Positions 18,419-38,900 of a stretch of DNA of 64,000 bases are shown here, in pieces. Location: NCBI GenBank assembly GCA_902560445.1, contig CACELO010000002.1:66468-130467 (forward strand). The letters run 5' to 3'. The DNA comes from an uncultured Candidatus Poseidoniales archaeon (lineage in GTDB: Archaea; Thermoplasmatota; Poseidoniia; Poseidoniales; Thalassarchaeaceae). The notes under the pieces were generated by a model that was given only the letters and a program-made list of their open reading frames with translations, had not been told where the DNA came from and did not search any database. The position numbers were made by a program, and so were the translations under genes. Each line of letters starts with the position of its first letter. Positions within the stretch are counted from its first letter, which is position 1.

Positions 18419-20566
18419 TCAGTCTCTCCGACTAGCCATCGCTGCACCTAGAAGAGCCAGAGCACCAAGTATTGGACCAAATCCTGGCAATACAGGCGGA
18501 GTAGCTGATGATTCTGACGAATACAGGGAAGCCCAGGTATCGTAAAACTCCATCTTGTCAATCTCCTCACCATCATAGTCGCTCCATTCAACAGACACCT
18601 CATCTCCTGGCGAGACCAGTCCGTCCCCATCGTGATCAGTGTAAGTAATCGTAACACCTTCCGCTTCTCCACCGGTTAGTGGGATGCTGAATTCGTTTGT
18701 GCAAGTACTTAGATCCGGCTGAACCATTTGGTCTTGATCCTCGTCATAAAACTCCTCACAGTCGCTGAGGAAGTGAACTTCGAAGTCGGTGATCGGAGCG
18801 TTGAGTGTCTGATTCTCCGCGACAAATCCGGTAGCGTCATTTCGCTCCATACCATCACCATCATCATCACTGTCGTCGTCATCATGGTCATGGTGCCTGT
18901 CAGCATCATCGTGAGTATGATCGGCCCCATCATCATGGTCATGATGATAGTCTCCATCTCCATGGTGGTGGTGACCTGCATCTTCTTCTGTTTCATGATG
19001 GTCGCCATCATCACTGTCGTCGTCATCACTGTCGTCGTCATCAGATAACATGTCCACAATGCCATCGATGAAGCACTGCATCTCGTCGATGTCGATTAGG
19101 TCGCTTCCATCGTAGTCGCAATCTTCGAACAGGATTGAGACCTCGTCGTAATCCAGTTCGGGGTTTGTTGCATTGGAATCCCAGGAATCCTGGAACTCTT
19201 GGAAACTCATGTATCCATCGTCATTTGCATCTACAGATTCCATAGCCTCTTCTGGAGTAGTGGAGCCATCGCCATCATCCTCTGAACCTGACCACTCGTC
19301 TCCGTCCGCAGAGTGCTCGAATTCCTCGCTCTGTCCGAAGTCGTCAGTGCAGTGCCAGTCTGAGTCATGGTATTCACAGTAATACCACCAATTTTCCCAG
19401 TCCTCATCATCCTGAGATATCTTGCACCACCAACGAGAATCCTCTCCTGCATCAGTAGCATCAGAGTAACCCTCCCATTCGCAGTAGCCGTCATGATAAC
19501 TGTCCCAACTGATATGATTGCCATCATCATGGTGGCCGTCGTCATCGTACTCATCGGAACCGTCCTCGCAATTTTCATAGCCGTCATTCACCCAATCCCA
19601 AGGAATCCAAGTATTCCCACCATCGCATGGGAACATCTCTTCTGAGTCGTCATCACCGTGGTCATCGTGGTCGTTGACATCGTTGAATATCTCAGAATCA
19701 AACCAAACTGGAATCGAGGTTCTTGGAAGTGTGTCATCCACCTCGATGACTATTGCATCTCCCCACATCACCTCATACGTTAGTGATGAGGTCGCAGAGC
19801 CGTTGTCGCTTTCTATGCTCATGGACATAAGGTCTTGATTCTGATCTATGTGAATGGTCATAGTAATCTCTGCTCCACCCTCCGTATACTCCATTGTCAT
19901 TGTCTGGGTTTCCATATCATCACTCATAGTGATTGTAATGACTGCGTCTTCTGGTAAGTCACCATCATCATCATCATCATCCCCATCATCATCACCTCCA
20001 TCATTGAAGAGTCCGGCCTGTTCTGCGATTACCTCCAAAACATTGGGGGTTGCATCTCGAGTTTGATAGGAGCCGGTTGTTGCCTCTCCTTGAACCATCA
20101 TTCCGCCCACCAACAGGTGGACATTGACAACCTCGCCGACCTGCACATGAGTATATTCCATTTGCAATAACCCTGCAATTGAAATTGAGTTGTGAACATA
20201 GACTGAGTCATTGTCAAGATCCGCCATTACAATGTCCTCTATCTCGACATCCATCTGCATCCCCAAATCTTGGTTCCACTCGCTCGATGAAATCGACTGA
20301 GAGTATCCTGCCTTCGGACTCTCTTCTAGCATATCTTCGATACTTCCCATATCAGTCATGGCCTCGATGAAAGTCTCCGTGGTGGCTATGTAAATACAGT
20401 CTCCAACTAACTCGGCCGTGGCGTTTTCTTCGTAATTGGCTGCATTCTCGTCCATACATCCTAAGACATCGTCAACAAGTTCTTCCAAATCTTCACCAGA
20501 AAGGCAACCTGCCATTGGAGTAGCTATCAAAATTAGGCTAGCGAGTAAGGCATACGCGCGATTCAT
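18419..20566 (-). CDS. Highly acidic secreted protein with His/Asp-rich low-complexity tracts, an EF-hand-like Ca-binding loop pair and a canonical PGF-CTERM archaeosortase sorting signal
   Basis: Signal peptide MNRAYALLASLILIATPMAGCLSGE. DANDDGYMSFQEFQ (DxNxDGxMxxxE) and DYDGSDLIDIDE loops. HHETEEDAGHHHHGDGDYHHDHDDGADHTHDDADRHHDHDDDD tract. C-terminal PPVLPGFGPILGALALLGAAMASRRD. Confidence 0.7.
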   Translation of the reverse strand: MNRAYALLASLILIATPMAGCLSGEDLEELVDDVLGCMDENAANYEENATAELVGDCIYIATTETFIEAMTDMGSIEDMLEESPKAGYSQSISSSEWNQDLGMQMDVEIEDIVMADLDNDSVYVHNSISIAGLLQMEYTHVQVGEVVNVHLLVGGMMVQGEATTGSYQTRDATPNVLEVIAEQAGLFNDGGDDDGDDDDDDGDLPEDAVITITMSDDMETQTMTMEYTEGGAEITMTIHIDQNQDLMSMSIESDNGSATSSLTYEVMWGDAIVIEVDDTLPRTSIPVWFDSEIFNDVNDHDDHGDDDSEEMFPCDGGNTWIPWDWVNDGYENCEDGSDEYDDDGHHDDGNHISWDSYHDGYCEWEGYSDATDAGEDSRWWCKISQDDEDWENWWYYCEYHDSDWHCTDDFGQSEEFEHSADGDEWSGSEDDGDGSTTPEEAMESVDANDDGYMSFQEFQDSWDSNATNPELDYDEVSILFEDCDYDGSDLIDIDEMQCFIDGIVDMLSDDDDSDDDDSDDGDHHETEEDAGHHHHGDGDYHHDHDDGADHTHDDADRHHDHDDDDSDDDGDGMERNDATGFVAENQTLNAPITDFEVHFLSDCEEFYDEDQDQMVQPDLSTCTNEFSIPLTGGEAEGVTITYTDHDGDGLVSPGDEVSVEWSDYDGEEIDKMEFYDTWASLYSSESSATPPVLPGFGPILGALALLGAAMASRRD

Positions 20567-21833: not shown

Positions 21834-22721
21834 TCAATTTCGAGTCCAAGATGGAATGAATACATCTCTCCAATTCGGAGTTGCAAGATATTCTTCCTCG
21901 GTAAAGAATGACCTTGCATAAATCGAAATAAAGTCGATAATTAGAACAACAATGTAGATAATAATCAGGTATGCAAATACCTTGTCATATTGTAAAAATC
22001 TAAGATACAGATCGATGTAATATCCAATTCCTCCTGCACCGACAATGCCGATTACAGTACCAGAACGGAAATTATATTCAAACATGAATATCGAGTGAGA
22101 AATTAGATCATTTGCGGCTTCAGGAATAACTACGTTAACTGCTACTTCCCAACGACTCAAGCCTATTGCATTCGCCGCATCCAAAGGAGTTTTTGTCAGA
22201 CCCTCAATTGATTCATACTGTAATTTTCCAAGATATCCCACTGTGTAAATTGTCATTGCCAGAACGCCAGCTAATGGACCTAAGCCGACTAGAATAACCA
22301 AGAAAATAGCCCAAATCAATGCTGGAAGACTCCTACATGCTGAGATAAGAAAGCGGGTAGGGTAAGATATCCATCGCGGGCTTAAATTTCTTGAAGCCAT
22401 GATTGACAAAGGTAATGTTACAACCATACCAAATACAGTTGCAACAAACGCAATCTTTAGCGTCTCAATAACTCCCTTCCAAGCGGTTGAGCAAGTGAAA
22501 TCGAAAATTGGTTGGGCAGTACAAACAGGATATGTTTGAGGCTCTAGAACGCTCATATCTGGTGGCCAAAGAGACTGAAAGAAGAATCTGACAAGATTAT
22601 CTGGGCCACCTGCTAATCTACCCCAGTCGCCAACCATTCCGTTTAGAATTACAATTGCAAGCAAAAGGAGAATCCATAGCACCAGAGCCATCTTTTCGCC
22701 ATCTACTGCTATCTTCTTCAT
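21834..22721 (-). CDS. ABC transporter permease, PhnE-like (phosphonate/phosphite-type family)
   Basis: 6 TM helices. EAA-loop LDAANAIGLSRWEVAVNVVIPEA. Confidence 0.75.
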   Translation of the reverse strand: MKKIAVDGEKMALVLWILLLLAIVILNGMVGDWGRLAGGPDNLVRFFFQSLWPPDMSVLEPQTYPVCTAQPIFDFTCSTAWKGVIETLKIAFVATVFGMVVTLPLSIMASRNLSPRWISYPTRFLISACRSLPALIWAIFLVILVGLGPLAGVLAMTIYTVGYLGKLQYESIEGLTKTPLDAANAIGLSRWEVAVNVVIPEAANDLISHSIFMFEYNFRSGTVIGIVGAGGIGYYIDLYLRFLQYDKVFAYLIIIYIVVLIIDFISIYARSFFTEEEYLATPNWRDVFIPSWTRN

Positions 22722-23428
22722 GAATTCAACACCACAGCTTTTGGTTTGGTAATGAATGGATTCACTCTTCCATCATCAATAACTAGGAGGCGATTTGCCA
22801 TTGACTTGGCTCTAGAAATATCATGCTCGACAACGATTAATGCTGAATTATTATCTTTCACGTAGCTTGTCACGCTTTCCAAAACCATAGCCAATGTTTC
22901 TTCGTCTAATTCACTCAAAAATTCATCTGCTAGAATTAATCTTGGTCGCTGAGCCAATGTTCTGGCCGTTGCGACTCTTCTCTGTTGGCCACCGGACAAC
23001 CTCCTAATTGGTTCTCTTGACTTTTCCTTAAGCCCCATTTGTTGAATTGCATTGGTAACTCGTTCCTTTCTTTCCTTCCTATCATTAGTTCCAGCTCGAG
23101 CACCCAACATTACATTGTGCCTAACACTTGCATGACGAACTAAACCCAATTTTTGTGGAATATACCCTAGTGCGCCACGGAGAGGTTTCGACGGAATTTC
23201 TGCACCACACACTGTGATCGAACCGGAAATTGGACGTATTAGTCCCGCAATTGTACCAAGTAAAGTTGACTTCCCGATACCAGAAGGGCCCGCTATGGCC
23301 ACTATTTCACCAGGGAATATTTCGAGATTGGGAATACTGACTAAGGGTGATTCAGTTTCATATCCGATTACTATATCTTCGAGGGAGACAATCGGATTTT
23401 CTGAACCCATACCCTCGGACAACTCCAA
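22718..23428 (-). CDS. ABC transporter ATP-binding protein, PhnC-like. The ORF starts on a TTG at 23428; the ATG at about 23410 (MGSENPIV...) is the likelier start.
   Basis: Walker A GPSGIGKSTLL, signature LSGGQQRRVATARTL, Walker B LILADEFLSELD. Overlaps the permease gene by 4 nt. Confidence 0.8.
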   Translation of the reverse strand: MELSEGMGSENPIVSLEDIVIGYETESPLVSIPNLEIFPGEIVAIAGPSGIGKSTLLGTIAGLIRPISGSITVCGAEIPSKPLRGALGYIPQKLGLVRHASVRHNVMLGARAGTNDRKERKERVTNAIQQMGLKEKSREPIRRLSGGQQRRVATARTLAQRPRLILADEFLSELDEETLAMVLESVTSYVKDNNSALIVVEHDISRAKSMANRLLVIDDGRVNPFITKPKAVVLNS

Positions 23429-23514: not shown

Positions 23515-25611
23515 TTATATCGATTCTTGCAAGAATGAATAGGCTCCGGGTACAACACTTACCACCTCAGATAGCAAGCCAAGATGTTCTTGTGAATTTG
23601 TTCTAACAATCCCTGTACCATCGAGTATATTGTTTAGAATTTCATCACCACAGATTTCCCTATTATTATCTGAATTTACCTTGTGTGTAGAAATATCGTA
23701 ACAACCAGTATATGTTCCAAATCCGGGTCTAGAATAATTCTCTAGATACATCTGATAATTCAAAGTAACTAAGGCGTTGAGAATAGCGGCTCTACTTCTA
23801 GAATCAAGAGTCGAAGGGTTGTACATTACAGATTCACTTGGAGACACACCGACTTGACCCAAAGATAGGTACTGGTCAATTTCCATGCACCAATCTTGAT
23901 TTTCTTGTTCTTCTTGATTACAATTTTCTTCTAGTGCATCTTCTCCGACGAATGCTATTTCACTTACATTTTCGGATAGGCAGCTAATCGCACCTACCTC
24001 TCCCGCAGGGGTGCTTGAAGATGAAAGAAGAGATGATTGATTTCCAAAATAGCCGCGTATTGTTTCGATAATCTCGACATTTTCTTGATTAGGCGAATAA
24101 TACTCATTTTCAATTAGATAATGAATAGGAAGAATTGTGTGAATTGGAGATTGAGAACCGGTGAAGCAAGACACTCTTCCCTGCATCATTGCAAATGGAT
24201 CGGTGCTAGATTCATTGTCTGAACTTGCGGTAGCCAATTCTCCTAAATTTGAGACTAAGGCCATAGAATACCGCTGAGTCAATTGATCTTTGTTTTGTAT
24301 GGCTCCTAGAACTGATAGATTATGTAATTTCCATCCAATTAACGAAGAAGATGAAGGAAGAAATCCAATATGAGCCTCGCCTGTTTCAATTGATTCAATC
24401 ATTTCTGATTGAGAATTAACATAGTGAATTGAAACATTAATTCCTAATTCTATGGATAAAAATTCGGCTAAATGAATCGGGTCACTATTGGTTTCTAATT
24501 TTGATTCATCTAGTTCAAATGCAACAATTAATTCTTCTATTGTTATTGTTATTGATTGACTTCCATTGTCGGTATAATAAGCTGAAATCCCAGGGATATT
24601 CGAAACCAGAGGCGTGTATATACCAAGATGAGATTCAGAATCTGTAGAAACTACACCCTTTGTCCCTAGTGTGTTGTAGAGAATTTCGCTGTAATCCTCG
24701 TTTGAACTAAAGTCAATTAGAAAATCCGTAAGTTCACTGATTACTAAATCATCATCAAAATTAGAATGAGTCATGAAAACATCACTGGGGGTCTTAGCGA
24801 ATGGTTCGAGAGAAACATATCTCGAGGCATCCAAACACCATTCTTCGACATTATTTCCATTTTCTGTGGTGCAGTATTGAGAGGCCGTGTTATCCTTCGC
24901 AAATGCAACCTCACCGGAACCATCTGAAAGACATCTTAGAGCCCCTGAAAATCCATAGTACTGTGTGCCAGGTTCCGGAATTGATGAGTTTTCGTTAAAG
25001 AATTGAAAAATTGTATTTCTTAGAGATTCGATATCATTTGGATCGCCAATTACATTTGCATACCCCAATCCAAGGAAGAATCCCATTGGAACCATCATTC
25101 CTGTTGAGTGTAACCAACCCGTATGGCAGGAAGTTTTGCCTTGCATCAGTGAGAATGGATTTGTTAGCGGATCATCGTCAAAATATGCTTCTGCGATATC
25201 GCTATCGTCGAGAACCCAAGCGAGAGAATTGTAGTATGTCCTGCCGTCTGATTTTTGGTCCGCTGCAAAAGCCTGCAAACCGTATTGATTCCACCCAATC
25301 CAAGCAGCACCGCTATCCATTAGAGCGATGTCGGCATTTCCAAACCTTAGTGCCTCGAGTATCGCTGCTTCTGAATCAACGGCATATATTGTAAAATCAA
25401 ATCTACTGTTTTGGGTAAGAATTTCTGCCAGCATCTCAGGATTAGTTTCTGACTCAAGCATACCTTCGGACACTTCGAATGCCAGAACAATGGGAGTTCT
25501 TGTTTGATTATTTGATTCTTCAGAATCACTCAAGCAACCAGAGAGAGTGCTAGAAAGCAGGATAATGGTATAACAAATGACCAGTATTTTGTAATGTCTT
25601 TTTGTCGGCAT
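23515..25611 (-). CDS. Bilobal transferrin-family substrate-binding lipoprotein (N-lobe near-canonical, C-lobe degenerate); first gene of an SBP-ATPase-permease operon
   Basis: Signal/lipobox LLSSTLSGCLSD. N-lobe: GNADIALMDSGAAW, RTYYNSLAWVLDDS, QGKTSCHTGWLHSTGMMVPMGFFLG, TQYYGFSGALRCLSDGSGEVAFAKD, EEWCLDAS...FAKTPSDVF. C-lobe repeats the same order of blocks (QGRVSCFTGS..., GEVGAISCLSENVSEIAFVGED, DWCMEIDQ) with the ligand residues lost. Confidence 0.75.
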   Translation of the reverse strand: MPTKRHYKILVICYTIILLSSTLSGCLSDSEESNNQTRTPIVLAFEVSEGMLESETNPEMLAEILTQNSRFDFTIYAVDSEAAILEALRFGNADIALMDSGAAWIGWNQYGLQAFAADQKSDGRTYYNSLAWVLDDSDIAEAYFDDDPLTNPFSLMQGKTSCHTGWLHSTGMMVPMGFFLGLGYANVIGDPNDIESLRNTIFQFFNENSSIPEPGTQYYGFSGALRCLSDGSGEVAFAKDNTASQYCTTENGNNVEEWCLDASRYVSLEPFAKTPSDVFMTHSNFDDDLVISELTDFLIDFSSNEDYSEILYNTLGTKGVVSTDSESHLGIYTPLVSNIPGISAYYTDNGSQSITITIEELIVAFELDESKLETNSDPIHLAEFLSIELGINVSIHYVNSQSEMIESIETGEAHIGFLPSSSSLIGWKLHNLSVLGAIQNKDQLTQRYSMALVSNLGELATASSDNESSTDPFAMMQGRVSCFTGSQSPIHTILPIHYLIENEYYSPNQENVEIIETIRGYFGNQSSLLSSSSTPAGEVGAISCLSENVSEIAFVGEDALEENCNQEEQENQDWCMEIDQYLSLGQVGVSPSESVMYNPSTLDSRSRAAILNALVTLNYQMYLENYSRPGFGTYTGCYDISTHKVNSDNNREICGDEILNNILDGTGIVRTNSQEHLGLLSEVVSVVPGAYSFLQESI

Positions 25612-25908: not shown

Positions 25909-27144
25909 TCATTGGAGAGTTCCAATGTCTTCGGCTGTGATGCCAAATGCATCCCAGACTGGCTGTAGATAGGAGCGGATATCCGCTTCGTAATCTGCTG
26001 TTGCATCTCCATCATTCTTCAGATCGAAGATTTCGAGAATCTTGTCATTGTAGTAATTAGCATACCACCCAAATGCCTCGCACTCCTCCTCTGACATACC
26101 CTCATGCTGAGCGTGTGTCACTGAATTATAGCATCCTGTGAATTCCTCTCCACTCGGATCGTTTGGAGAAGTGTAGTTCTCCAGATACATGTATGCCTCG
26201 CAGGATGCCTGTGAGCTATCCGATGAGACCGTGTGAGATACCATGTTGTAGCAGATCGAAGTGTACTCAGCGACATATGCCTCGATTACCCTGTAGAAGG
26301 CGTGACCCTCTGCCTGGTGCTTGTCGTAGTCTGCAGTATCTCCAGCAGCTAGGTCGTCCGTCATCTTTGATGCGTACCTCACAGAAGCCTGTGAGTAGAC
26401 GATTACAATATTCTTCAGAACCTCGTCGCGTGCGTCGACTACTCCTTGCATATCTTCATTCTGAAGTGCAGTCAAGCCAGCGTTCATTGCGGCTAGAGTA
26501 GCGATGTTTGTAGCATCACCAGTCCCAAAGTTGCCCCCTCTCTTGGCAGCGGTTGCATATGGCCCACATCCATCGTAATCATGGTTGGAATCGTCAGGAC
26601 CATGGTAGAAAGCCCATCCTTCGTCCCAAGCGTGTTGAGCGTCATCGGCCCCCCAGTTTCCTGCTTCCGCCTTGATGATTGCAGCGTTGAGTTCATGGAT
26701 TGCATAAGCAGTCATCACACCATTCTGGATTCCCTTTTCGACTGCTTGATCTCTGACTGTGTCAGATTCTCCCTCGAAAGGACCTGTGCCATCAATAGCC
26801 GCAGATACGAAGTCATTCCATGAGCCGTCTGCATCATAGTATGCGTCGTAGGCGTGGTTCTTGCCGGAAGCATCTGCGAAGCCCATGAGGGTCCTGTAGG
26901 AACCGTCGGACTTCTCCGCGTGCTTTCCATCATCATAGATATCCTTCACACCGTCCCAATCGTATGCACCAGAGAGGTCCTTAATATCGCAGACATCACC
27001 CATTAACATTCGGTGATTATCAACGTTGGAAGCATACGTGTATCCTCCATCTGCGTCATCAAGATCTACATCATCTCCTGCACAACCGGCAATCGCACTG
27101 CCGATTAATACTAAAGTCATCATTAAAGTCATTGTTCTATTCAT
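25909..27144 (-). CDS. Secreted lipoprotein, Asp/Tyr/His-rich, unknown function (possibly imelysin/EfeO-like and iron-related)
   Basis: Lipobox LVLIGSAIAGCAGDD. HQAEGH (HxxE) and HAWDEGWAFYHG motifs. Two palindromic operator copies sit in its promoter region. Confidence 0.5.
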   Translation of the reverse strand: MNRTMTLMMTLVLIGSAIAGCAGDDVDLDDADGGYTYASNVDNHRMLMGDVCDIKDLSGAYDWDGVKDIYDDGKHAEKSDGSYRTLMGFADASGKNHAYDAYYDADGSWNDFVSAAIDGTGPFEGESDTVRDQAVEKGIQNGVMTAYAIHELNAAIIKAEAGNWGADDAQHAWDEGWAFYHGPDDSNHDYDGCGPYATAAKRGGNFGTGDATNIATLAAMNAGLTALQNEDMQGVVDARDEVLKNIVIVYSQASVRYASKMTDDLAAGDTADYDKHQAEGHAFYRVIEAYVAEYTSICYNMVSHTVSSDSSQASCEAYMYLENYTSPNDPSGEEFTGCYNSVTHAQHEGMSEEECEAFGWYANYYNDKILEIFDLKNDGDATADYEADIRSYLQPVWDAFGITAEDIGTLQ

Positions 27145-27146
27145 AG

Positions 27147-27162
27147 TTTAGGTCTCCCTAAA
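27147..27162. promoter_or_regulatory. Palindromic candidate operator TTTAGGTCTCCCTAAA, 3 nt upstream of the start codon of the 411-aa lipoprotein gene
   Basis: TTTAGG-N4-CCTAAA palindrome, operator-proximal copy. Confidence 0.55.
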
Positions 27163-27190
27163 CCGGCCGGATAGCGAATCGTATATGAAA

Positions 27191-27206
27191 TTTAGGGCGC
27201 CCTAAA
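27191..27206. promoter_or_regulatory. Palindromic candidate operator TTTAGGGCGCCCTAAA in the divergent promoter region (lipoprotein gene on the minus strand, GDPD-like gene on the plus strand)
   Basis: Perfect 16-bp palindrome. Separated from copy 27147..27162 by 28 nt that include TTTCATATA (TATA-like on the minus strand). Confidence 0.55.
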
Positions 27207-27299
27207 CTCTTGAATCGTGCGTGGAAAATTGTCATATAACTGATGAGCAGTCAATTGAATTGGAGACGAGGTTTTTTTACTCATTTCTATTCGTAAATA

Positions 27300-27905
27300 T
27301 TGGTTTTAGTTACAAGGAGAGGATTAGTCTTGAGGAATTTGGGGCATAGATTGGGGGCTTCTGGTACCAAAATGGAAAATACCATTGACGGGCTTATGAA
27401 TTCATTAGAACAGGTAAATAATAGAAAATTTAAGTATTGGGAATTTGATATTAGAGAATCTTTGGATGGAATAATTTTTGTCTTTCATGATGATCAAATA
27501 CTTGTAGATGGAGAATTAATCGAAACCGCCAAATTGAATTTCTCTGAAATAATGAAAGCGGGTGAGGATTTGGGGGTAAAGATACCTACATTTTCAGAAG
27601 TTGTTGAAATATTGGGTGACCGGAAAGAAGATGTCATGGTTGAAGTGAAAGAATTGAGAACTGATGCCGCTAGAAGAACCGTAATCACTGCGATTTCTAG
27701 TAAACCAAATTGGAAACTGATGGCTACTCCAACTAGATTCTTGGAATCTTTTCCTAGTGAATCCAGGGAGTATTGGGAGCGATTTACTCGAGATTTGGAC
27801 GTAGAATTCGTTAGAGTTGGCCGCCATAAATTGGACCTTTTCAGCGCTTCTAAATCCTATTTTAGGTGGAAATTTGCTCGATTTAAATGGTTTTTCGGGA
27901 TTTAA
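27300..27905 (+). CDS. Glycerophosphodiester phosphodiesterase-like (GDPD family) protein. Likely start is the TTG at about 27329, downstream of a GGAGAGGA RBS.
   Basis: GHRLGASG...ENTIDGL...WEFDIRESLDGIIFVFHDD follows the GDPD HRG/ENT/E-D/HD pattern. Confidence 0.5.
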   Translation: MVLVTRRGLVLRNLGHRLGASGTKMENTIDGLMNSLEQVNNRKFKYWEFDIRESLDGIIFVFHDDQILVDGELIETAKLNFSEIMKAGEDLGVKIPTFSEVVEILGDRKEDVMVEVKELRTDAARRTVITAISSKPNWKLMATPTRFLESFPSESREYWERFTRDLDVEFVRVGRHKLDLFSASKSYFRWKFARFKWFFGI

Positions 27906-27968
27906 TAATGATGACTATTTTGAATTAATTTTTCCTACAATTGATTATGAACCCCATTACTCACCCTA

Positions 27969-28403
27969 ATGTTGAAGAAAATGGTCAGTACTGATGAGTT
28001 AATTGTGGCGCTAAATAATGCTCTCGCTTGGGAATTAAGGGCTATTGCAATGTATGCTCACTATTCCGCATACGTTTCAGGGATTCATAGATTACAACTT
28101 TCGGTATTCTTCAATAATGAAGTAACAGAATCAATTGCGCATGCTTCAACCGTAAGATCCGCTATAGTGAAATTACACGGTAAGGCCACTACGGAGAGGG
28201 CAGAAGACCCTATTTTACACTCAATGGACTTCCGAGATATGTTGGAAGAGGCACACAAAACTGAGTTGAAAGCTAGCGAGACATATGGAGAAATTTTACC
28301 AATGGTTGAGCAAATTGGGGATAGCGAACTTTTTGATGCCCTGGAAGTTATTTACTTTGATGAACTGAGATCTGTAGAAGAATTGAGAATGATGCTTGGT
28401 TGA
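27969..28403 (+). CDS. Ferritin-like (bacterioferritin/Dps-like four-helix bundle) protein
   Basis: LNNALAWELRAIAMYAHYS...EVTESIAHASTVRSAI...EEAHKTELKASETYG: paired E...H / ExxH-like diiron-site spacing typical of ferritin-like proteins. Confidence 0.5.
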   Translation: MLKKMVSTDELIVALNNALAWELRAIAMYAHYSAYVSGIHRLQLSVFFNNEVTESIAHASTVRSAIVKLHGKATTERAEDPILHSMDFRDMLEEAHKTELKASETYGEILPMVEQIGDSELFDALEVIYFDELRSVEELRMMLG

Positions 28404-28429
28404 GATTTAAACATACTATTTACCGTTAG

Positions 28430-28445
28430 TTTAGGGTGCCCTAAA
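28430..28445. promoter_or_regulatory. Palindromic candidate operator TTTAGGGTGCCCTAAA between a TTTAAA TATA-like element and the start of the monolobal transferrin-like gene
   Basis: TTTAGG-N4-CCTAAA palindrome about 20 nt downstream of TTTAAA (about 28405) and about 30 nt upstream of ATG 28476. That placement would overlap the TSS. Confidence 0.55.
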
Positions 28446-28475
28446 CATTATCAAACAAACCGATTTCGGAGATGT

Positions 28476-29546
28476 ATGGAAAAAACTAGTTGGGCTGGTT
28501 GGGCCAAAGCTAACAAAGCACTTTTGCTCGCTGGATTAGTGCTATCTGCGACCGTATTGTATCTCATTTTCGACATTAATTACGAACAATGTGATGATCA
28601 AGATAACTGTATTACAATCGCTTTTGAGGTACAAGATGACTATTTGTATTTTGGAAAAGAGAACCCTCAGCACTTGGCAGACAAAATGAGTGCTCTGACT
28701 GGTATGGATGTTGAAATAATGCCTGTATCGAATTCCGGCGCGATAATCGAGGCTATCAATAATGGCAATGCGGATATTGGATTTGTAGATGGAGCGGCCG
28801 CTTGGCTTGCATGGGAAGTTTACGATTTGGACGTGCTAGCGGCAGAGTGGAAATTTGATCAAAGGACGTACTATAATGCGGCAGCCTGGGTGAAAAAGGA
28901 CTCTGAAATTGCAGACGCGTATCTAGATGATGATCCAGATACAGACCCATTTGCTTTAATGAATGGAAAAACGTCTTGCCATACAGGATGGCTGAAAAGT
29001 GCTGGGATGTTGATTCCAATGGGTTACTTGATTGGAAATGGGTATGCCGAGGTGCGTGGAGATCCTGAAGAAATTACTTCACTACGAGATACAGTGACGC
29101 ATTTCTTCAACGAAGATTCAAGCATACCTGACGGAGGTACTCAATATTCCGGATATAAGGGGGCATTGAAGTGTATGATGACTGATCGCGGAGACGTTGC
29201 TTTAGTCAAGGATACAGCATATATGCTCTACTGTGACGAAAATGAGGACGGAATTGCAGATGGTCCTGATTGGTGTTTGGATAGAGATGAGCTCGTTATG
29301 CTCGAGTCATTTGGTCGAGCACCGAGTCACCCCGCTTTGTATAATCCCTCAGCTATGAATAACGAAACGGTCGAACTAATTCAAAATGCATTGGTGGATA
29401 TGAATAATGATGAAGAAGGTACAAAGATACTCTCCGATGTCTTAAACACTGAAGGAATGGTTGTTACGAATGCTACTGCTCACCTAGGCACATATGGTGC
29501 GGCTGTAGAGAACGTCCCTGGAATACAAGCATTTTTTGAGGATTGA
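28476..29546 (+). CDS. Monolobal transferrin-family iron-binding protein (membrane-anchored/secreted) with a complete Asp/Tyr/Tyr/His ligand set
   Basis: NADIGFVDGAAAW (Asp), RTYYNAAAWVKKDS (Tyr), GKTSCHTGWLKSAGMLIPMG (anion-site Thr; Arg replaced by Lys), QYSGYKGALKCMMTDRGDVALVKD (Tyr), DWCLDRDE...GRAPSHPALYNPS (His). N-terminal TM anchor. Confidence 0.75.
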   Translation: MEKTSWAGWAKANKALLLAGLVLSATVLYLIFDINYEQCDDQDNCITIAFEVQDDYLYFGKENPQHLADKMSALTGMDVEIMPVSNSGAIIEAINNGNADIGFVDGAAAWLAWEVYDLDVLAAEWKFDQRTYYNAAAWVKKDSEIADAYLDDDPDTDPFALMNGKTSCHTGWLKSAGMLIPMGYLIGNGYAEVRGDPEEITSLRDTVTHFFNEDSSIPDGGTQYSGYKGALKCMMTDRGDVALVKDTAYMLYCDENEDGIADGPDWCLDRDELVMLESFGRAPSHPALYNPSAMNNETVELIQNALVDMNNDEEGTKILSDVLNTEGMVVTNATAHLGTYGAAVENVPGIQAFFED

Positions 29547-29592
29547 TCACACAATCCCAACTAGCGTACTGCCACAACGTTGAGGTTTCATA

Positions 29593-30798
29593 ATGAGAGT
29601 GACCATCACTATCCTAATTTTATTGATAATATCTCTATTTTCTGGATGTTTTTCAGACGATGGAGATGATTTTGATTGGACTGATCCCCAAACAACAGAG
29701 TGCAATTTAGGCAATAACCTAACTTGTACTAATTTGTTTCCGGGAGCTGGTACTCCTCATCACTCAGAAGTAAATCCTCAAACTAATGAATTATGGATAA
29801 TTTATCTCAGTGGAATGGTAAAAATTTGGCAAGATGATGAACTAATACAAGCTGGTGACTTAAGTGAAATTGTAAATAGATGCCATACAGAACAAGGATT
29901 GCTTGGATTTGCATTCGATGCCAACTATAATTCTTCCAAACAACTATTGTTATCATATGTGGAAAAAGGCAGCTGCGAAGGGGCGAATAATGCAGACCTC
30001 GTTCTTGCTTCAGTTGTTGTTACTGATGATGATATGATAAATTTGGACTCGTTAATCGTCTTGAAAACCGTAGAACAACCATACAGGAATCATAACGGGG
30101 GGCATTTACATGGTTTGGGTAATGGAGAATACCTCTGGGGAATTGGAGACGGAGGTGGAGCTAACGACCCAGAAAAGAATGGGCAGAATTCTGAAAATTT
30201 ATTGGGCACTATTGTTTACTTCCAATACTCAAATGGCGATGTTAATCCGATAATGGATTCAGAAAATGGAAACCCCTACATCTTGCACTATGGTTTGCGA
30301 AATCCATGGAAATTCGACGTGGGCCCTAATGAGGAACTATGGATTGCTGATGTCGGACAAAATTGTTGGGAAGAAATTAATTTGGTAAATTTGGTAAACA
30401 AATCAAACCTTGGGTGGTCAGAAAAAGAAGGATTCAGTGATTTTTCCGAAGGTGGAAGTTGTGAAGGAGGAGTTCTATCTGAAAATAATGAATTTACAGA
30501 CCCTGTCTTTGTCTATGGTCACAATAACGGAAATTGTTCCATAACCGGTGGCTTTTGGACTGAGAATACAATAATCTCAGACCAAGGTGGTTATCTGTTT
30601 GGAGACTTTTGTTCTGGTTCGCTATGGATTCTTTCCAATGGTGTAAATCACACATGGAAAGAGACCTATCTTGGTAACGTGGGGGGACTAATTGTAGGGT
30701 TTGGAGAAGGGGCTAATGGTGAGCTTCTGGTCTTTTTCTGGACTGGAGAAATCATACAAATCACTCAATCCGCTGCCGCCGATAGCAATATCGTGTGA
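29593..30798 (+). CDS. Lipoprotein of the soluble PQQ-dependent sugar (glucose/sorbosone) dehydrogenase beta-propeller family
   Basis: Lipobox ISLFSGCFSDDG. GLLGFAFD, NHNGGHLHGLGNGEYLWGIGDGGGANDPEKNGQNSENLLGTIVYF and GLRNPWKFDVGPNEELWIADVGQNCWEEINLV match GSDH family blocks. Confidence 0.65.
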   Translation: MRVTITILILLIISLFSGCFSDDGDDFDWTDPQTTECNLGNNLTCTNLFPGAGTPHHSEVNPQTNELWIIYLSGMVKIWQDDELIQAGDLSEIVNRCHTEQGLLGFAFDANYNSSKQLLLSYVEKGSCEGANNADLVLASVVVTDDDMINLDSLIVLKTVEQPYRNHNGGHLHGLGNGEYLWGIGDGGGANDPEKNGQNSENLLGTIVYFQYSNGDVNPIMDSENGNPYILHYGLRNPWKFDVGPNEELWIADVGQNCWEEINLVNLVNKSNLGWSEKEGFSDFSEGGSCEGGVLSENNEFTDPVFVYGHNNGNCSITGGFWTENTIISDQGGYLFGDFCSGSLWILSNGVNHTWKETYLGNVGGLIVGFGEGANGELLVFFWTGEIIQITQSAAADSNIV

Positions 30799-35990: not shown

Positions 35991-38900
35991 TCAATTGCCG
36001 TCCCCTTGGCCTTGCTGGGCGTAATATGCTGCGTAATATTGCTCGGCATATTGCCTCGCGGTAGCTTCGTCATAGCCTTGTCCGACCATCTGTTGTACGT
36101 ATGCTTCGACGGGGTCCATTTGCTCCACACCACCAAACTGTTCAACAGTGTCTTGGCCATCATCCGATTTACCTCTCGATCTAACAACGACTAGAGTTAC
36201 ACCAACAATTGCTAGAACCAAAATAACTCCGATAGCAGCGAACATGATGACGTCGGTGCTACCACTTTCTGACTCACAACCATCGCTTGATGGATTCAGA
36301 GCACAAGGGTCGCTTGGTCGAGGAAGTAAGTCAATTGTAAACTGGTCATCCAAGGTGTACCTGCTTCCATCTCCCTCAACAATTCTCCAGTATATTGTGA
36401 CCTGTTTCCCAGTAGTCTCCAAGTAAAGGTCTGCAATGTTGAGAGTGATTGTGAAGGAGTCACCATCTCCAAGTGGGGCTGGACCTGTAGAATTGTATTT
36501 TCCTAGTGCCTTCTGAGTAGCCTTTGGAGAGGGTGTCAAATCCAAATGGGCAGAATCTAAAGCCACCTCAATTATGACACCGTTTTCGGCACCTGATTCC
36601 ACAATACCATTGATTGTGACCAAATCTTGGCTCTGAGAATCAGTAGAACGTGGTGAAGTAATATCCACAACTGGCGGTTCGTCTCCGAAGTCCTCTCCAA
36701 CTACAATGAAGTAGATTCGTGCCTTTTCTGATTGCTTTCCAGCACGATCGTATACAATCAATTCTAGCCTAATCTGGTTCTCAAGCGTTCCATCGCTAGT
36801 CATGTTACGGAATACATAATTCCACGTGTCACCACCTGCTGCGTTAGGTACCTGGAAGGTATGGCCTTCTAGAGTTGGACTCGAGGAATCTACAGGATAA
36901 TCAAAGAATACACGATATTCAAACATCTCAATTCCTCTCTCACCCTCAGGTGCGTCGTCGTCAGAGCTTGCTGAAGAATCGAAGGAAAGACTGATATCAC
37001 CACTGTCGGTCAATCTAACTCGATATATTGGCCAATCTATGCCCCCAACGGTTTTGCTCCCTTCAAGACTTACGTACTCATCTGTAACGCTGTCCTCAAT
37101 CATTTGTAGATCTGCATTAGGTCGGAATTCATCCGCTAATGTATCATCTGTTACTAGATTGATGTAAGTGATTCTTGTGTGACCCTCATCATCATGTAAA
37201 TACAGAGTCAGATGCCATTCTGCACCGATTCTACATCCAGTTGTGGAACTCGAATCGCCAACGCAGAAGCTACCAAGAGCTGGTATGCTCGCACTGTTTT
37301 GACGAATGTGGCTAGTTTCACCGAAATCGATAATTTCTCCTTCCCACCCTGTAACCGACTCATTCATGTCTATAGATTGTAATGTCCAATCGGCAATAAT
37401 ACCGTCAGCCAAGGATGAATCCGACGTCAAGAAAGAGAAATCCAGTTCAGAGTTCGACTTGATGTACATGGTTGAGTAGGCGCCTGTTACCGTGTCAATC
37501 GAAGGGGCTTCTCCATTCACAGTCAAGTCAAATCCATCACCTGCAATTCCGAAGTTACTTGGGTATGGAGTTACTTGATAGCCAAGCATATTGGATAACA
37601 GTGGCATAGATGTTCCATTAAATGGTTGAGAGAAGCTTGGATTCTCAACGTCAAGGGTAGTAACAATCATTCCACCTGCTCCGCGATTACATATCGAAAG
37701 TAACGACTGTGAGTCAAACGATTCACTTCGCATTAGAGTATGGAAGGTTCCGGTTGGATCACTAATTCGACCACCACATACTTGTGGAATTTGGTCGAAT
37801 TGTACCTGTGCTGTATCGAGACCTGCTAATGCGACGTAGGACCCACCGTGAACGCCGGCAAAGGCTGCAGTATCGACGTTATTCATCAGTGGGTGGTATG
37901 CATCGACAATAACTAGGTCATCATTTGTGACTGTGTTATTCCATTGGTTTCGCATAGCGATATCCATTCCGAAAGGTAGCCTATTTGGCTGATATTCGTT
38001 ACGATATGGCCCAAGGTGAATCTGAACAGTTCCACCGTTAACCATGTATGCCTCAAGGACTTCTGTAACCGAGAGACCGTCTGATTCCCTAGTAGATGCT
38101 AGTGTCTCGTAATATTGTCCATACTCGACATTGTAATCGGTCTGCCATGGTAGCAAGATCTTGTCATAATGGGACATCCAGTTCTCAGTTGCGTATCGAT
38201 CCCAATCATTTACTGACAACTGAGTATATGTCATTCCCATCGACTCTAGGTCTTGCTTAACTCTCTGCAAACGATTCTGATCTGTAGGGTTGGATAGAAT
38301 TGCGACATCGACAGTTTCAAAGAATTCTATTTCAAAGAATCGATCGTTTCCTGATGGTTCTCCGTCTTCAGTCAATATAGCATAGAAGCTGATGTTGTAT
38401 TGATGACCATCATACCAGCCGTTGTAAGGTGCGGTCCAATTAGCGAAGTCTCGAGCATGAGCTTCAAGATCAAACGGCCCATTATCTGCCGGCTGTTCGT
38501 AAACAGTTTGGCCTGTTGTCATGTCTACAATCTTCATATTCACTTCATACTCGCCTGCGATTACACCATTCAGAAGAGGAACAGTGAATGAGTGCTGAGA
38601 GACTGAATCATATGTGTAGACGCACTTGTATGTGATATCAGAGACACAATCAAGTACATTTGGTTGCATCAAAGTTATGTCTGCGCTTGCGATACTGAAG
38701 ATAATTTGGGTGTGATTATTTGCGGTGGTAATCTCGGTTTTATTATACCATGATGTATCTTCAATTGTACTATTGAATAGAGTTGTTGCATCAATTCGGT
38801 AAATTCCCGATTTGAAGTCGTGCGTTGCCACCGTAACGTCTTCGCGCTCCGATGCATCAAGTCCATTGATGTCGTTGATGTAAGTTCCATCATCCTCGAA

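What the first reader, a model, noticed from the sequence alone, without database searches (positions are those of the whole stretch)
23515..25611. Bilobal transferrin-like lipoprotein whose C-lobe has lost the metal ligands: an independent lobe duplication
The 698-aa protein is an internal tandem duplication of the lobe; the blocks GNADIA/GEAHIG, QGKTSCHTG/QGRVSCFTG, SGEVAFAKD/SEIAFVGED and EEWCLDAS/DWCMEIDQ recur in the same order. The N-lobe keeps Asp, the first Tyr and the CHTG helix, but has Phe at the second-Tyr position (YYGF) and Asp in place of His (TPSDVF). The C-lobe has lost Asp (FLPSS), the CHTG Thr context (CFTG) and the His (SPSESV). This mirrors the lobe-duplication-and-degeneration history of animal transferrins (melanotransferrin, insect Tf), but within an SBP of an ABC importer.
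Basis: seen in the sequence. Interest (0 to 1): 0.6.

Follow-up and report, generated by a model that had tools for sequence, protein, structure and literature searches.

The report
Archaeal two-lobed transferrin with dead C-lobe
A marine archaeon's "phosphonate" ABC-transporter binding protein is really a two-lobed transferrin homologue that duplicated independently of animal transferrins and then lost the iron-binding residues of its second lobe. In related genomes that loss goes with the presence of an algal-type FEA1 iron-protein gene next door.

Summary
ORF 23515-25611(-) encodes a 698-aa lipoprotein (lipobox LSGC) whose halves align at E=4e-38. It passes Pfam Transferrin, and its AF2 model matches only bilobal transferrins.

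Aligned to verified human transferrin:
- N-lobe: D99, Y127, T164, H168, F221, D277 (human D63, Y95, T120, R124, Y188, H249).
- C-lobe: P419, R447, T484, S488, E538, E593.

The gene heads an SBP–ATPase–PhnE-permease operon in Ca. Thalassarchaeum (Marine Group II).

New context:
- Most orthologues across MGIIa, MGIIb and MGIII are bilobal with the full D-Y-T-K-Y-H set in both lobes, and their lobes are 72-77% identical.
- All archaeal lobes form one clade (89%), apart from the animal N+C clade (100%). The duplication is therefore independent of animals but order-wide, not lineage-specific.
- C-lobe site loss arose in at least two, probably three, clades. It tracks an adjacent FEA1-related lipoprotein gene (25 vs 2; 0 vs 38).
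- The dead lobe is still under purifying selection (dN/dS 0.12-0.19).

Most likely this is an iron-importer component whose capture role shifted to FEA1 and a canonical single-lobe paralogue. Biochemistry is untested.

The parts
25534..25611 (-). Signal peptide and lipobox (aa 1-26, ...LSG-C26)
   Evidence: Hydrophobic N-terminus followed by LSGC. G25 and C26 are invariant in 47 homologues. Neighbouring secreted proteins carry similar lipoboxes: MAGC, IAGC, FSGC.
24571..25500 (-). N-lobe (aa ~38-347): transferrin-type lobe with a remodelled site D99/Y127/T164/H168/F221/D277
   Evidence: HMM lobe envelope and ligand mapping against human Tf. His->Asp is found in 31/31 members of this subfamily, and Tyr->Phe/Leu in 30/31 (Glu in one). 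The His motif is remodelled from APSHPV to TPSDVF, and G100 becomes S. dN/dS is 0.07-0.08.
24541..24570 (-). Inter-lobe linker (aa ~348-357)
   Evidence: pLDDT is below 50 at residues 347-352 in the AF2 model.
23518..24540 (-). C-lobe (aa ~358-698): folded transferrin-type lobe lacking all four metal ligands and the anion-binding Lys (P419/R447/T484/S488/E538/E593)
   Evidence: Ligand mapping. The ligand columns are hypervariable even among 85-98% identical orthologues. pLDDT is about 85-94 over residues 370-470. dN/dS is 0.12-0.19, about twice that of the N-lobe. Only 79 of 191 type-A-invariant positions are kept, against 105 of 148 in the N-lobe.
23650..23760 (-). C-lobe-specific ~35-aa insert 'NYQMYLENY...TGCYDISTH...C' (aa ~618-654; invariant C637, Y638, H643, C654)
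   Evidence: Present in C-lobes of both canonical and degenerate orthologues and absent from N-lobes and single lobes. It forms a beta-meander in the model. The same module occurs 2-5 times in the tail of FEA1-related lipoproteins. In the window and in about 1.3 Mb of related loci it occurs in no other real protein; the only other pattern matches are in 80-123-aa ORFs with no CYN-type sequence.
22718..23428 (-). ABC transporter ATP-binding subunit (236 aa), 86 nt downstream of the SBP gene
   Evidence: PF00005 at 1.5e-31. The best NCBIfam hit is PhnC, 132.5 bits, below its 266.1 cut-off. It is syntenic in nearly all 84 related loci.
21834..22721 (-). PhnE-type ABC permease (295 aa), overlapping the ATPase gene by 4 nt
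   Evidence: TIGR01097 PhnE equivalog, 233.7 bits > 216.7 cut-off. Syntenic across loci.
25909..27144 (-). FEA1-related lipoprotein (411 aa) immediately upstream, with two C-terminal CYNxx[ST]H..C modules
   Evidence: PF07692 Fea1 at 3.2e-19. NF038033 FEA1_rel_lipo, 358 > 250 bits. Modules at aa 298-315 and 338-355. Its presence correlates with C-lobe site loss.
28476..29546 (+). Single-lobe transferrin-like paralogue (356 aa, N-terminal membrane anchor) with the full D-Y-T-K-Y-H set
   Evidence: Pfam hits. 44.7% identical to the N-lobe and 30% to the C-lobe. Ligand set. Found in the B1 loci that have about 10 kb of upstream flank, except L007 where a canonical bilobal gene replaces it.
27969..28403 (+). 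Ferritin-like protein (144 aa) in the same cassette
   Evidence: PF00210 at 1.1e-15.

Best explanation
SHOWN. The gene encodes the lipid-anchored binding protein of a PhnC/PhnE-type ABC importer in a Marine Group IIb archaeon. The protein belongs to a branch of the transferrin family whose named prokaryotic members are all Thermoplasmatota. In that branch a single-lobe binding protein with the transferrin Fe3+/carbonate site was duplicated in tandem, independently of animals and before MGIIa, MGIIb and MGIII diverged. The site is Asp, Tyr, Tyr, His plus Thr and Lys at the anion helix. The result was a bilobal protein with two intact sites, and most species still have that form. In the window's clade the C-lobe has lost every ligand and the N-lobe is remodelled (Tyr->Phe, His->Asp, Lys->His). 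C-lobe site loss happened in at least two, probably three, clades. Except in two loci, it is found with an FEA1-related ('phytotransferrin-like') lipoprotein gene directly upstream, and never without site loss where FEA1 is present.

INFERRED.
1. The transporter imports ferric iron, not phosphonate.
2. Once FEA1 took over iron capture at the cell surface, the C-lobe site became redundant and decayed. In this clade a canonical single-lobe paralogue also contributes.
3. The C-lobe is retained under purifying selection for a role that does not involve ligand binding: a scaffold, a docking surface, or a partner surface for FEA1. The shared CYN..H..C module hints at the FEA1 option.
4. The remodelled N-lobe serves as a weaker relay site that hands iron to the permease.

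My confidence in the identity and evolutionary history is about 0.9. My confidence in the redundancy/relay mechanism is about 0.4.
For: Identity.
- Internal duplication E=4e-38.
- Pfam Transferrin above threshold.
- PDB sequence and fold hits are exclusively transferrins.
- AF2 pLDDT 81.6 with two lobes.
- Lipobox invariant.

Operon.
- PhnE equivalog passes its cut-off.
- SBP-ATPase-permease-G3PDH synteny holds in nearly all 84 loci.

Ancestral bilobal state.
- D-Y-T-K-Y-H in both lobes in 86 of 121 homologue clusters and 43 of 80 GTDB species loci.
- Canonical N and C lobes are 72-77% identical.
- The C-lobe-only insert is shared by canonical and degenerate forms in MGIIa, MGIIb and MGIII.

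Independence from animals.
- NJ tree of 80 lobes, 273 columns: animal clade 100%, archaeal clade 89%.

Orthology of canonical and degenerate forms.
- Same chromosomal position.

FEA1 link.
- Degenerate with FEA1 25, degenerate without 2, canonical with FEA1 0, canonical without 38.
- The three degenerate clades are each 100% supported and never monophyletic together (0/100) in a PhnE+ATPase tree.
- B1 C-lobes are as far from B2/B3 C-lobes (1.06-1.12) as from canonical ones (1.06).

Selection.
- C-lobe dN/dS is 0.075-0.22 in degenerate clades, 1.4-2.9 times the N-lobe value.
- The ratio is 0.66-1.8 in the five canonical pairs with measurable divergence in both lobes.

Iron context.
- FEA1, a ferritin-like gene and a canonical single lobe lie in the window.
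- DtxR/IdeR-type iron-repressor genes sit beside canonical bilobal genes (L035, L046, L048, L058) and beside single-lobe operons (L085, L088, the latter with a ZIP transporter).
- No phosphonate-catabolism domain is found among the window ORFs of 150 aa or more that were scanned.

Cassette swap.
- In strain L007 the FEA1/single-lobe cassette is replaced by one canonical bilobal gene. The degenerate protein therefore again sits beside a canonical transferrin-like gene.
Against: - No metal- or ligand-binding experiment exists for any member. Iron binding is inferred from ligand conservation and gene context only.
- Non-canonical sites can still bind iron. From my own knowledge, insect transferrin-1 (PDB 6wb6) uses two Tyr plus carbonates. 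The N-lobe may therefore be fully functional.
- The FEA1 correlation is not phylogenetically corrected and rests on NJ trees. The N-lobe tree groups B2 with B3 (71%), so there may be only two independent events.
- L056 is degenerate without FEA1 within 10 kb.
- FEA1 type and C-lobe type do not strictly co-vary: B1-type FEA1 occurs with B2-type SBPs in L028, L029 and L039.
- The canonical C-lobes of FEA1-less genomes also carry the CYN module, so the module did not evolve for FEA1 contact.
- No iron-repressor gene or DtxR-box-like site is present in this window.
- Only 64 kb of the genome was seen, so another canonical copy elsewhere cannot be excluded.
Confidence: 0.55

Rival explanations
1. 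Neofunctionalisation. The remodelled N-lobe (Asp, Tyr, Asp, no second Tyr, variable residue at the anion position) has switched to a different substrate. Candidates are another hard metal ion, Fe(II), or an iron-organic complex. On this reading the protein is a specialised SBP for that substrate and the C-lobe is inert ballast.
For: - The N-lobe changes are conserved, not random: His->Asp in 31/31, Tyr->Phe/Leu in 30/31 (Glu in one), and a coordinated APSHPV->TPSDVF and G100S change.
- The N-lobe is under strong purifying selection, 0.07-0.08.
- A canonical single-lobe paralogue in the same locus could cover Fe3+.
- Other degenerate clades show carboxylate-rich patterns, such as N-S-S-D-D-D in the B2 C-lobe.
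Against: - The residue at the anion-binding position varies (H/K/E/D) within the clade, which is odd for a newly fixed specificity.
- The whole gene context is iron-related.
- No alternative substrate is suggested by any neighbour.
Confidence: 0.22
2. It is what the automatic annotation says: a PhnD-type phosphate/phosphite/phosphonate binding protein of a PhnCDE transporter. This is consistent with the published statement that phosphonate transport is a core MGII trait.
For: - PF12974 Phosphonate-bd at 3.6e-24.
- The permease is a PhnE equivalog above its cut-off, and PhnC is the best ATPase model.
- JGI names homologues 'ABC-type phosphate/phosphonate transport system substrate-binding protein'.
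- Tully 2019 lists phosphonate transport in the MGII core genome (PMC6336850).
Against: - The PhnD equivalog TIGR03431 scores 40.9 against a cut-off of 261.1, and TIGR01098 scores 67.7 against 112.
- Orthologues carry the complete transferrin Fe3+/carbonate ligand set in both lobes.
- The nearest solved relatives by sequence and fold are all transferrins.
- Neighbours are FEA1, a ferritin-like gene and, in other lineages, DtxR-type iron repressors and ZIP.
- No C-P lyase or phosphonatase domain is found among the window ORFs of 150 aa or more that were scanned.
Confidence: 0.05
3. The protein is a decaying relic. Both sites are dead, and the gene is on its way to loss, now that FEA1 and the single-lobe paralogue do the work.
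For: - Neither lobe has the canonical ligand set.
- The C-lobe ligand columns are hypervariable.
- Further subfamilies exist in which both lobes are strongly degenerate: P0161, P0165, P0168.
Against: - dN/dS is 0.07-0.19, far below 1, in both lobes.
- The ORF is intact and its length is conserved from 52% to 100% identity across many species.
- It remains the only binding-protein gene in operon position with the ATPase and permease.
- 105 of 148 type-A-invariant N-lobe positions are retained.
Confidence: 0.05
4. The bilobal gene was acquired ready-made from a eukaryote, so the duplication is the same event as in animal or holozoan transferrins.
For: - Outside Thermoplasmatota, the best-scoring relatives whose source I could identify are eukaryotic: the ichthyosporeans Chromosphaera and Amoebidium, then animals.
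- The family is small in prokaryotes: 275 representatives at E<=1e-3 in 1.84 billion proteins.
Against: - Archaeal N and C lobes cluster together (89%) and animal N and C lobes cluster together (100%).
- Archaeal N/C identity reaches 77%, against 40% or less to the ichthyosporean Amoebidium lobes.
- Single-lobe SBP-ATPase-permease operons with canonical ligands exist in other Thermoplasmatota and in high-GC prokaryotic contigs.
- Lobe duplication is recurrent in the family, with 3-lobed archaeal and 6-lobed ichthyosporean proteins.
Confidence: 0.02

Closest known systems
Animal transferrins with a non-binding C-lobe (melanotransferrin; insect transferrin-1)
   Same: - Same Pfam family (PF00405) and the same bilobal architecture produced by tandem duplication of a ~330-aa lobe.
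- One lobe has lost its iron ligands while the fold is kept.
- Melanotransferrin 6xr0 is the best structural hit (1.6e-26), and Manduca Tf1 6wb6 is also among the top 50.
   Different: - The duplication is an independent event.
- The protein is a lipobox-anchored binding protein in an operon with an ABC ATPase and a PhnE-type permease, not a secreted or GPI-anchored eukaryotic protein taken up by endocytosis.
- Lys rather than Arg occupies the anion site in canonical members.
- The disulfide-rich animal pattern is absent.
- The C-lobe carries a unique CY[DN]..H..C insert.
PhnD, the phosphonate-binding protein of PhnCDE
   Same: - Same SBP superfamily: PF12974 is hit at 3.6e-24.
- Same transporter type, with a PhnE equivalog permease.
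- PhnD-like proteins are the proposed common stock of transferrin and phytotransferrin (McQuaid 2018 as summarised in PMC7676907).
   Different: - It fails the PhnD equivalog and subfamily cut-offs.
- It is bilobal.
- Orthologues carry transferrin metal ligands.
- The gene context is iron, not phosphonate.
Phytotransferrin ISIP2a / FEA1 of algae
   Same: - It is proposed to work the same way, as a cell-surface Fe3+ (carbonate-dependent) capture step for uptake.
- An FEA1-family lipoprotein is encoded immediately upstream.
   Different: - The SBP itself is not an FEA1-fold protein.
- The FEA1 relative here is prokaryotic and lipobox-anchored, and it has a tail of CYN modules.
- Uptake would be through an ABC importer rather than endocytosis.
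FbpA/FutA 'bacterial transferrin' ferric-binding proteins
   Same: Functional analogy: an SBP delivers Fe3+ with a synergistic anion to an ABC importer. This comparison rests on my own knowledge.
   Different: - FbpA has a different ligand set (His, Glu, Tyr, Tyr plus phosphate or carbonate) and belongs to a different SBP family (my own knowledge).
- No FbpA chain is among the 60 listed PDB sequence hits, which are all transferrin-family chains.
- FbpA is single-lobed.
Tandem substrate-binding domains of ABC importers (e.g. GlnPQ SBD1-SBD2)
   Same: Two covalently linked binding domains serve one ABC translocator. This is a resemblance recalled from knowledge, not tested here.
   Different: Here the tandem domains form a free lipoprotein and are not fused to the permease. 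In this lineage one of them has no binding site.

Membership tests
Transferrin family (Pfam PF00405) | Sequence match above the curated family threshold | tested here: met
   73.9 bits against a gathering score of 20.3, E=1.7e-20. The best PDB sequence hits are lactoferrin and transferrin at 4e-21.
Transferrin family (Pfam PF00405) | Bilobal fold, each lobe a two-subdomain clamshell | tested here: met
   AF2 model with pLDDT 81.6 and two lobes joined by a low-confidence linker. All top 50 Foldseek PDB hits are bilobal transferrins.
Transferrin family (Pfam PF00405) | Four protein ligands for Fe3+ (Asp, Tyr, Tyr, His) in at least one lobe | tested here: not met
   The N-lobe has D99, Y127, F221, D277 and the C-lobe has P419, R447, E538, E593. 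The feature is met in both lobes of most orthologues and in the neighbouring single-lobe paralogue.
Transferrin family (Pfam PF00405) | Synergistic-anion site: Thr plus a basic residue (Arg124 position) at the N-terminus of helix 5 | tested here: not met
   Thr is kept in both lobes (T164, T484). The basic residue is His168 in the N-lobe and Ser488 in the C-lobe. Canonical archaeal members have Lys.
Transferrin family (Pfam PF00405) | Reversible Fe3+ binding with carbonate | not testable with these tools
   This needs recombinant protein with UV-vis, ITC or ICP-MS.
PhnD phosphonate-binding protein (NCBIfam TIGR03431 / TIGR01098) | Score above the equivalog or subfamily cut-off | tested here: not met
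   TIGR03431 scores 40.9 against 261.1. TIGR01098 scores 67.7 against 112.05.
PhnD phosphonate-binding protein (NCBIfam TIGR03431 / TIGR01098) | Operon with PhnC and PhnE | tested here: met
   The permease is a PhnE equivalog at 233.7 > 216.7. PhnC is the top ATPase model but falls below its cut-off, 132.5 < 266.1.
PhnD phosphonate-binding protein (NCBIfam TIGR03431 / TIGR01098) | Genomic association with phosphonate catabolism (C-P lyase, phosphonatase) | tested here: not met
   No such Pfam domain is found among the window ORFs of 150 aa or more that were scanned. Only this 64-kb window was examined, not the genome.
Substrate-binding lipoprotein of a type I ABC importer | Signal peptide with a lipobox Cys, and a gene adjacent to and co-oriented with the ATPase and permease | tested here: met
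   LSG-C26, with G25 and C26 invariant. The gap to the ATPase is 86 nt, and the ATPase and permease overlap by 4 nt. Synteny is conserved across the 84 loci.
Substrate-binding lipoprotein of a type I ABC importer | Docking to and delivery into the permease | not testable with these tools
   This needs complex modelling or biochemistry.

The most novel reading that the evidence does not exclude
The transferrin-type binding proteins of Thermoplasmatota are the prokaryotic stock, or a surviving sister, of eukaryotic transferrins. The 'phosphonate transporter' counted in the MGII core genome would then be a carbonate-dependent Fe(III) ABC importer. In FEA1-bearing lineages the dead C-lobe would have been converted into the receptor surface through which an archaeal 'phytotransferrin' (the FEA1-related lipoprotein) hands iron to the importer. 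That would make a two-component capture and relay system, evolved repeatedly, in one of the most abundant archaeal groups of the surface ocean.
Probability: 0.2. Interest if true: 0.85.

Novelty: new variant of a known kind. Interest (0 to 1): 0.68.

Why it matters
A current review places the origin of single-lobed and bilobed transferrins in early metazoans (PMC9378453). The proposed link to prokaryotic PhnD-like binding proteins has been phylogenetic only (McQuaid 2018 via PMC7676907).

This locus shows a prokaryotic family with three relevant features:
- It carries the exact transferrin ligand set.
- It is still wired to a PhnC/PhnE ABC importer.
- It underwent its own lobe duplication, triplication and lobe-specific site loss.

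It therefore offers a natural replicate of the animal melanotransferrin and insect-transferrin history.

It also suggests that the 'phosphonate transport' scored as a core MGII trait (PMC6336850) is iron uptake. That would change how the nutrient physiology of these abundant ocean archaea is read, and it would tie their iron acquisition to seawater carbonate chemistry, as in diatoms.

The near-perfect association between FEA1 and loss of the C-lobe site gives a concrete, testable hypothesis about how FEA1/ISIP2a-type proteins cooperate with membrane transporters.

In the held literature I found no paper combining 'transferrin' with any MGII term.

Tried and rejected
- **Iron-repressor site.** A DtxR/IdeR-box consensus with up to 3 mismatches gave 0 hits in the window. 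No short inverted repeats occur in the four intergenic regions of the cassette. No DtxR homologue is present in the window. Co-regulation by iron therefore could not be shown here.
- **FEA1 in the PDB.** The FEA1 neighbour has no PDB sequence hit at E<=1.
- **FEA1 homologue search.** The listed top 120 hits were all 98-100% identical sequences. They were useless for a deep alignment, so I did not model FEA1 or the CYN module.
- **McQuaid et al. 2018.** The paper is not held. Its conclusion is cited second-hand from PMC7676907.
- **Early literature hits.** Hits for 'transferrin' plus MGII were word-start artefacts such as 'transferring'.
- **First Tyr ligand column.** My first choice (Y126) was wrong. 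Alignment with verified human transferrin puts the ligand at Y127/R447, so I recomputed the patterns.
- **Single origin of degenerate forms.** I rejected a single origin of all degenerate forms (0/100 bootstraps), but B2 and B3 may share one origin (71% in the N-lobe tree).
- **Single lobe derived from the N-lobe.** I considered that the single-lobe paralogue derives from this protein's N-lobe and rejected it. It branches outside the clade of bilobal lobes and is only 45% identical to the N-lobe.


Full report
**1. The observation**

The ORF at 23515..25611(-) is real: 698 aa with an ATG start. Its N-terminus is a signal peptide ending in the lipobox LSG-C26. G25 and C26 are invariant in a 47-sequence alignment.

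BLASTP of residues 28-350 against 351-698 gives E=4e-38, with 27% identity over 335 columns.

The family and fold assignments agree:
- Pfam reports both PF00405 Transferrin (73.9 bits, threshold 20.3) and PF12974 Phosphonate-bd.
- The best PDB sequence matches are lactoferrin, transferrin and melanotransferrin, from 4e-21.
- An AF2 model built on the alignment has pLDDT 81.6, two folded lobes and a disordered linker at residues 347-352.
- Its top 50 Foldseek hits in the PDB are all bilobal transferrins, with melanotransferrin first at 1.6e-26.

**2. Ligand mapping**

I then aligned its two lobes with 78 other lobes.

The human ligands and anion residues are D63, Y95, T120, R124, Y188 and H249. 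They fall on these query residues:

| Human | N-lobe | C-lobe |
|---|---|---|
| D63 | D99 | P419 |
| Y95 | Y127 | R447 |
| T120 | T164 | T484 |
| R124 | H168 | S488 |
| Y188 | F221 | E538 |
| H249 | D277 | E593 |

The C-lobe has in fact lost both tyrosines and the basic anion residue as well.

**3. Context in the window**

The gene is followed by an ABC ATPase after 86 nt, and then by a permease that overlaps the ATPase by 4 nt. The permease passes the PhnE equivalog cut-off, 233.7 > 216.7.

Other genes in the cassette:
- Immediately upstream, on the same strand, lies an FEA1-related lipoprotein (NF038033, 358 > 250; PF07692).
- Beyond it, on the other strand, lie a GDPD-like gene and a ferritin-like gene.
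- Next comes a 356-aa membrane-anchored single-lobe transferrin-like paralogue that keeps D-Y-T-K-Y-H.
- Last is a GSDH-type lipoprotein.

The organism is Ca. Thalassarchaeum sp. (MGIIb-O1). Locus L005, from MAG ALOHA_A2.0_21, is identical.

None of the window ORFs of 150 aa or more that were scanned carries a phosphonate-catabolism domain.

**4. The family**

The word-indexed search returned 675 relatives. The best 120 are about 700-aa proteins from MGII MAGs. NCBI names them 'PhnD/SsuA/transferrin family substrate-binding protein', and JGI names them phosphate/phosphonate SBPs.

The ligand columns split them into two groups:
- 86 of 121 carry D-Y-T-K-Y-H in both lobes. These are 43-47% identical to the query.
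- 31 form the query's subfamily, called B1 here. The N-lobe is D-Y-T-x-[F/L]-D, with His->Asp in 31/31 and Phe/Leu in 30/31. The C-lobe ligand columns differ even between 85-98% identical sequences.

In canonical proteins the two lobes are 72-77% identical to each other. In the query they are 30% identical.

A scan of one genome per GTDB species found 318 coding stretches. Among the best 80, the family occurs in Thalassarchaeaceae, Poseidoniaceae and one MGIII MAG. Two records with bacterial titles are probably mis-binned.

The exhaustive HMMER search with the single-lobe paralogue found only 275 representatives at E<=1e-3 among 1.84 billion proteins. Named prokaryotic members are all Thermoplasmatota. 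Among the best-scoring non-archaeal relatives are multi-lobed proteins of the ichthyosporeans Chromosphaera and Amoebidium, followed by animals.

**5. Independent and old duplication**

I built an NJ tree of 80 lobes with 273 columns and 100 bootstraps:
- All animal lobes, including human N and C, form one clade (100%).
- All MGII lobes (N, C and single) form another (89%).

A roughly 35-aa insert, Y.ENY...TGCY[DN]..H...C, is present only in C-lobes. It occurs in canonical and degenerate proteins alike, and in MGIIa, MGIIb and MGIII. It is found in 78 of 86 bilobal ORFs.

The duplication is therefore independent of animals but ancestral to the whole order, not specific to this lineage.

Lobe duplication is recurrent in the family. 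Examples are a three-lobed archaeal protein (P0006, with lobes 1 and 2 81% identical) and a six-lobed ichthyosporean protein.

**6. Canonical and degenerate forms are orthologues**

Both forms sit between the AdoHcy hydrolase side and the conserved ATPase-PhnE-G3PDH-...-DeoC block.

**7. Site loss tracks FEA1**

I counted GTDB loci with at least 1.7 kb of upstream sequence.

| C-lobe site | FEA1-related gene within the locus (found just upstream of the SBP) | No FEA1 gene |
|---|---|---|
| Degenerate | 25 | 2 (L007, L056) |
| Canonical | 0 | 38 |

The uncorrected Fisher test gives p = 5e-16.

There are three degenerate patterns:
- B1: the query's clade.
- B2: N-lobe canonical, C-lobe N-S-S-D-D-D.
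- B3: both lobes altered.

In a PhnE+ATPase tree (513 columns) each of the three is a 100% clade. The three together are never monophyletic (0/100), and B2 groups with canonical loci at 74%.

In SBP-lobe trees B1 is separate from B2 and B3. B1 C-lobes are as distant from B2/B3 C-lobes as from canonical ones. B2 and B3 group at 71% in the N-lobe tree.

I conclude that there were at least two, and probably three, independent losses.

**8. The dead lobe is not dead weight**

dN/dS against close orthologues is 0.07-0.08 for the N-lobe and 0.12-0.19 for the C-lobe.

Across nine degenerate pairs (ratio computable in eight), the C/N ratio of dN/dS is 1.4-2.9. In the five canonical pairs with measurable divergence in both lobes it is 0.66-1.8.

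Positions invariant in canonical proteins are retained in B1 at 105/148 in the N-lobe and 79/191 in the C-lobe. The C-lobe has 28 positions that became hypervariable.

**9. Evidence that the system handles iron**

- Orthologues keep the complete transferrin ligand set.
- FEA1 and a ferritin-like gene are neighbours.
- DtxR/IdeR-type iron-dependent repressor genes lie divergently upstream of canonical bilobal genes in L035, L046, L048 and L058.
- The same repressor type lies next to the single-lobe SBP-ATPase-permease operons L085 and L088; L088 also has a ZIP transporter.
- The PhnD equivalog model is failed by a wide margin.

In strain L007 the 4.85-kb cassette (window 25923-30773: FEA1, GDPD, ferritin-like, single lobe, GSDH) is replaced by one canonical bilobal gene. 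That gene is 87% identical in nucleotides to the MGIII locus L035. The degenerate protein therefore again has a canonical partner.

**10. Mechanism**

Steps shown:
- Membership of the transferrin family by sequence and fold.
- The operon with an ABC importer.
- The ancestral two-site state.
- The independent duplication.
- The recurrent C-lobe site loss linked to FEA1.
- Purifying selection on both lobes.

Steps inferred:
- Fe3+/carbonate is the substrate of the ancestral system.
- FEA1, plus the single-lobe paralogue in this clade, made the C-lobe site redundant.
- The C-lobe is retained for a structural, docking or FEA1-contact role.
- The N-lobe acts as a weaker relay site.

Caveat, from my own knowledge: insect transferrin-1 binds iron with a non-canonical set, so the N-lobe may still bind iron well.

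**11. Comparison and novelty**

The protein works like, and is homologous to, animal transferrins with a silent C-lobe. It fails the defining ligand test itself, while its orthologues pass it. It is not a PhnD equivalog.

I found no paper combining 'transferrin' with any MGII term. One MGII genomics paper counts phosphonate transport as a core trait. A recent review places the origin of transferrin in early metazoans.

I rate it a new variant of a known kind, with interest 0.68.

Noticed in passing
window 23650-23760(-) and 26080-26253(-); loci L002-L076: A ~34-aa Cys-bracketed module 'CYNxx[ST]H-x8-10-C' occurs once as an insert in the C-lobe of the bilobal SBPs. It occurs 2-5 times in tandem at the C-terminus of the FEA1-related lipoproteins. 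In the window and in ~1.3 Mb of related loci it is found in no other real protein. Pfam does not cover it.
   Followed up: partly
L007 7549-9654 versus window 25923-30773: Strain-level cassette swap. In a 97%-identical relative, the FEA1 / GDPD / ferritin-like / single-lobe / GSDH cassette is replaced by one canonical bilobal transferrin-like gene. That gene is 87% identical in nucleotides to the MGIII locus L035. This could be a flexible iron island or an assembly chimera.
   Followed up: partly
P0006 / P0123 (MAK77820.1, Euryarchaeota archaeon): A three-lobed 1156-1175-aa version with D-Y-T-K-Y-H in all three lobes. Lobes 1 and 2 are 81% identical, which points to a further recent lobe duplication.
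   Followed up: partly
L035 9226-9867, L046, L048, L058; L085 2170-2598; L088 2597-3256: DtxR/IdeR-type iron-dependent repressor genes lie next to canonical bilobal or single-lobe transferrin-like SBP operons. L088 also has a ZIP transporter. L085 is 69% GC, so the family reaches beyond MGII.
   Followed up: partly
P0161, P0165, P0168 (about 660-706 aa archaeal proteins): Further bilobal subfamilies in which both lobes have strongly divergent ligand columns, for example DQSSYR / DQTYPS. Their function is unknown.
   Followed up: no
window 18419-20566(-): A 715-aa hyper-acidic lipoprotein with long Asp/His-rich runs and a C-terminal PGF-like membrane anchor, with no Pfam hit. The syntenic protein in related loci shows faint EF-hand and LDL-receptor-A hits, so it may be a cation-binding surface protein.
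   Followed up: no
window 29593-30798(+) and 27300-27905(+): A GSDH-type (PQQ-dependent dehydrogenase-like) lipoprotein and a GDPD-like gene always travel with the single-lobe transferrin-like gene as one cassette. The cassette lies upstream of the SBP in B1 loci and downstream of the permease in B2 loci.
   Followed up: no
L029 (Rhodobacteraceae MAG title) and L082 (Rhodobiaceae MAG title): Two loci with typical MGII synteny are filed under bacterial MAG names. This is most likely a binning error in the public records.
   Followed up: no
window 35991-42476(-): A 2161-aa protein with FG-GAP-like repeats flanks the island and is syntenic in related loci.
   Followed up: no
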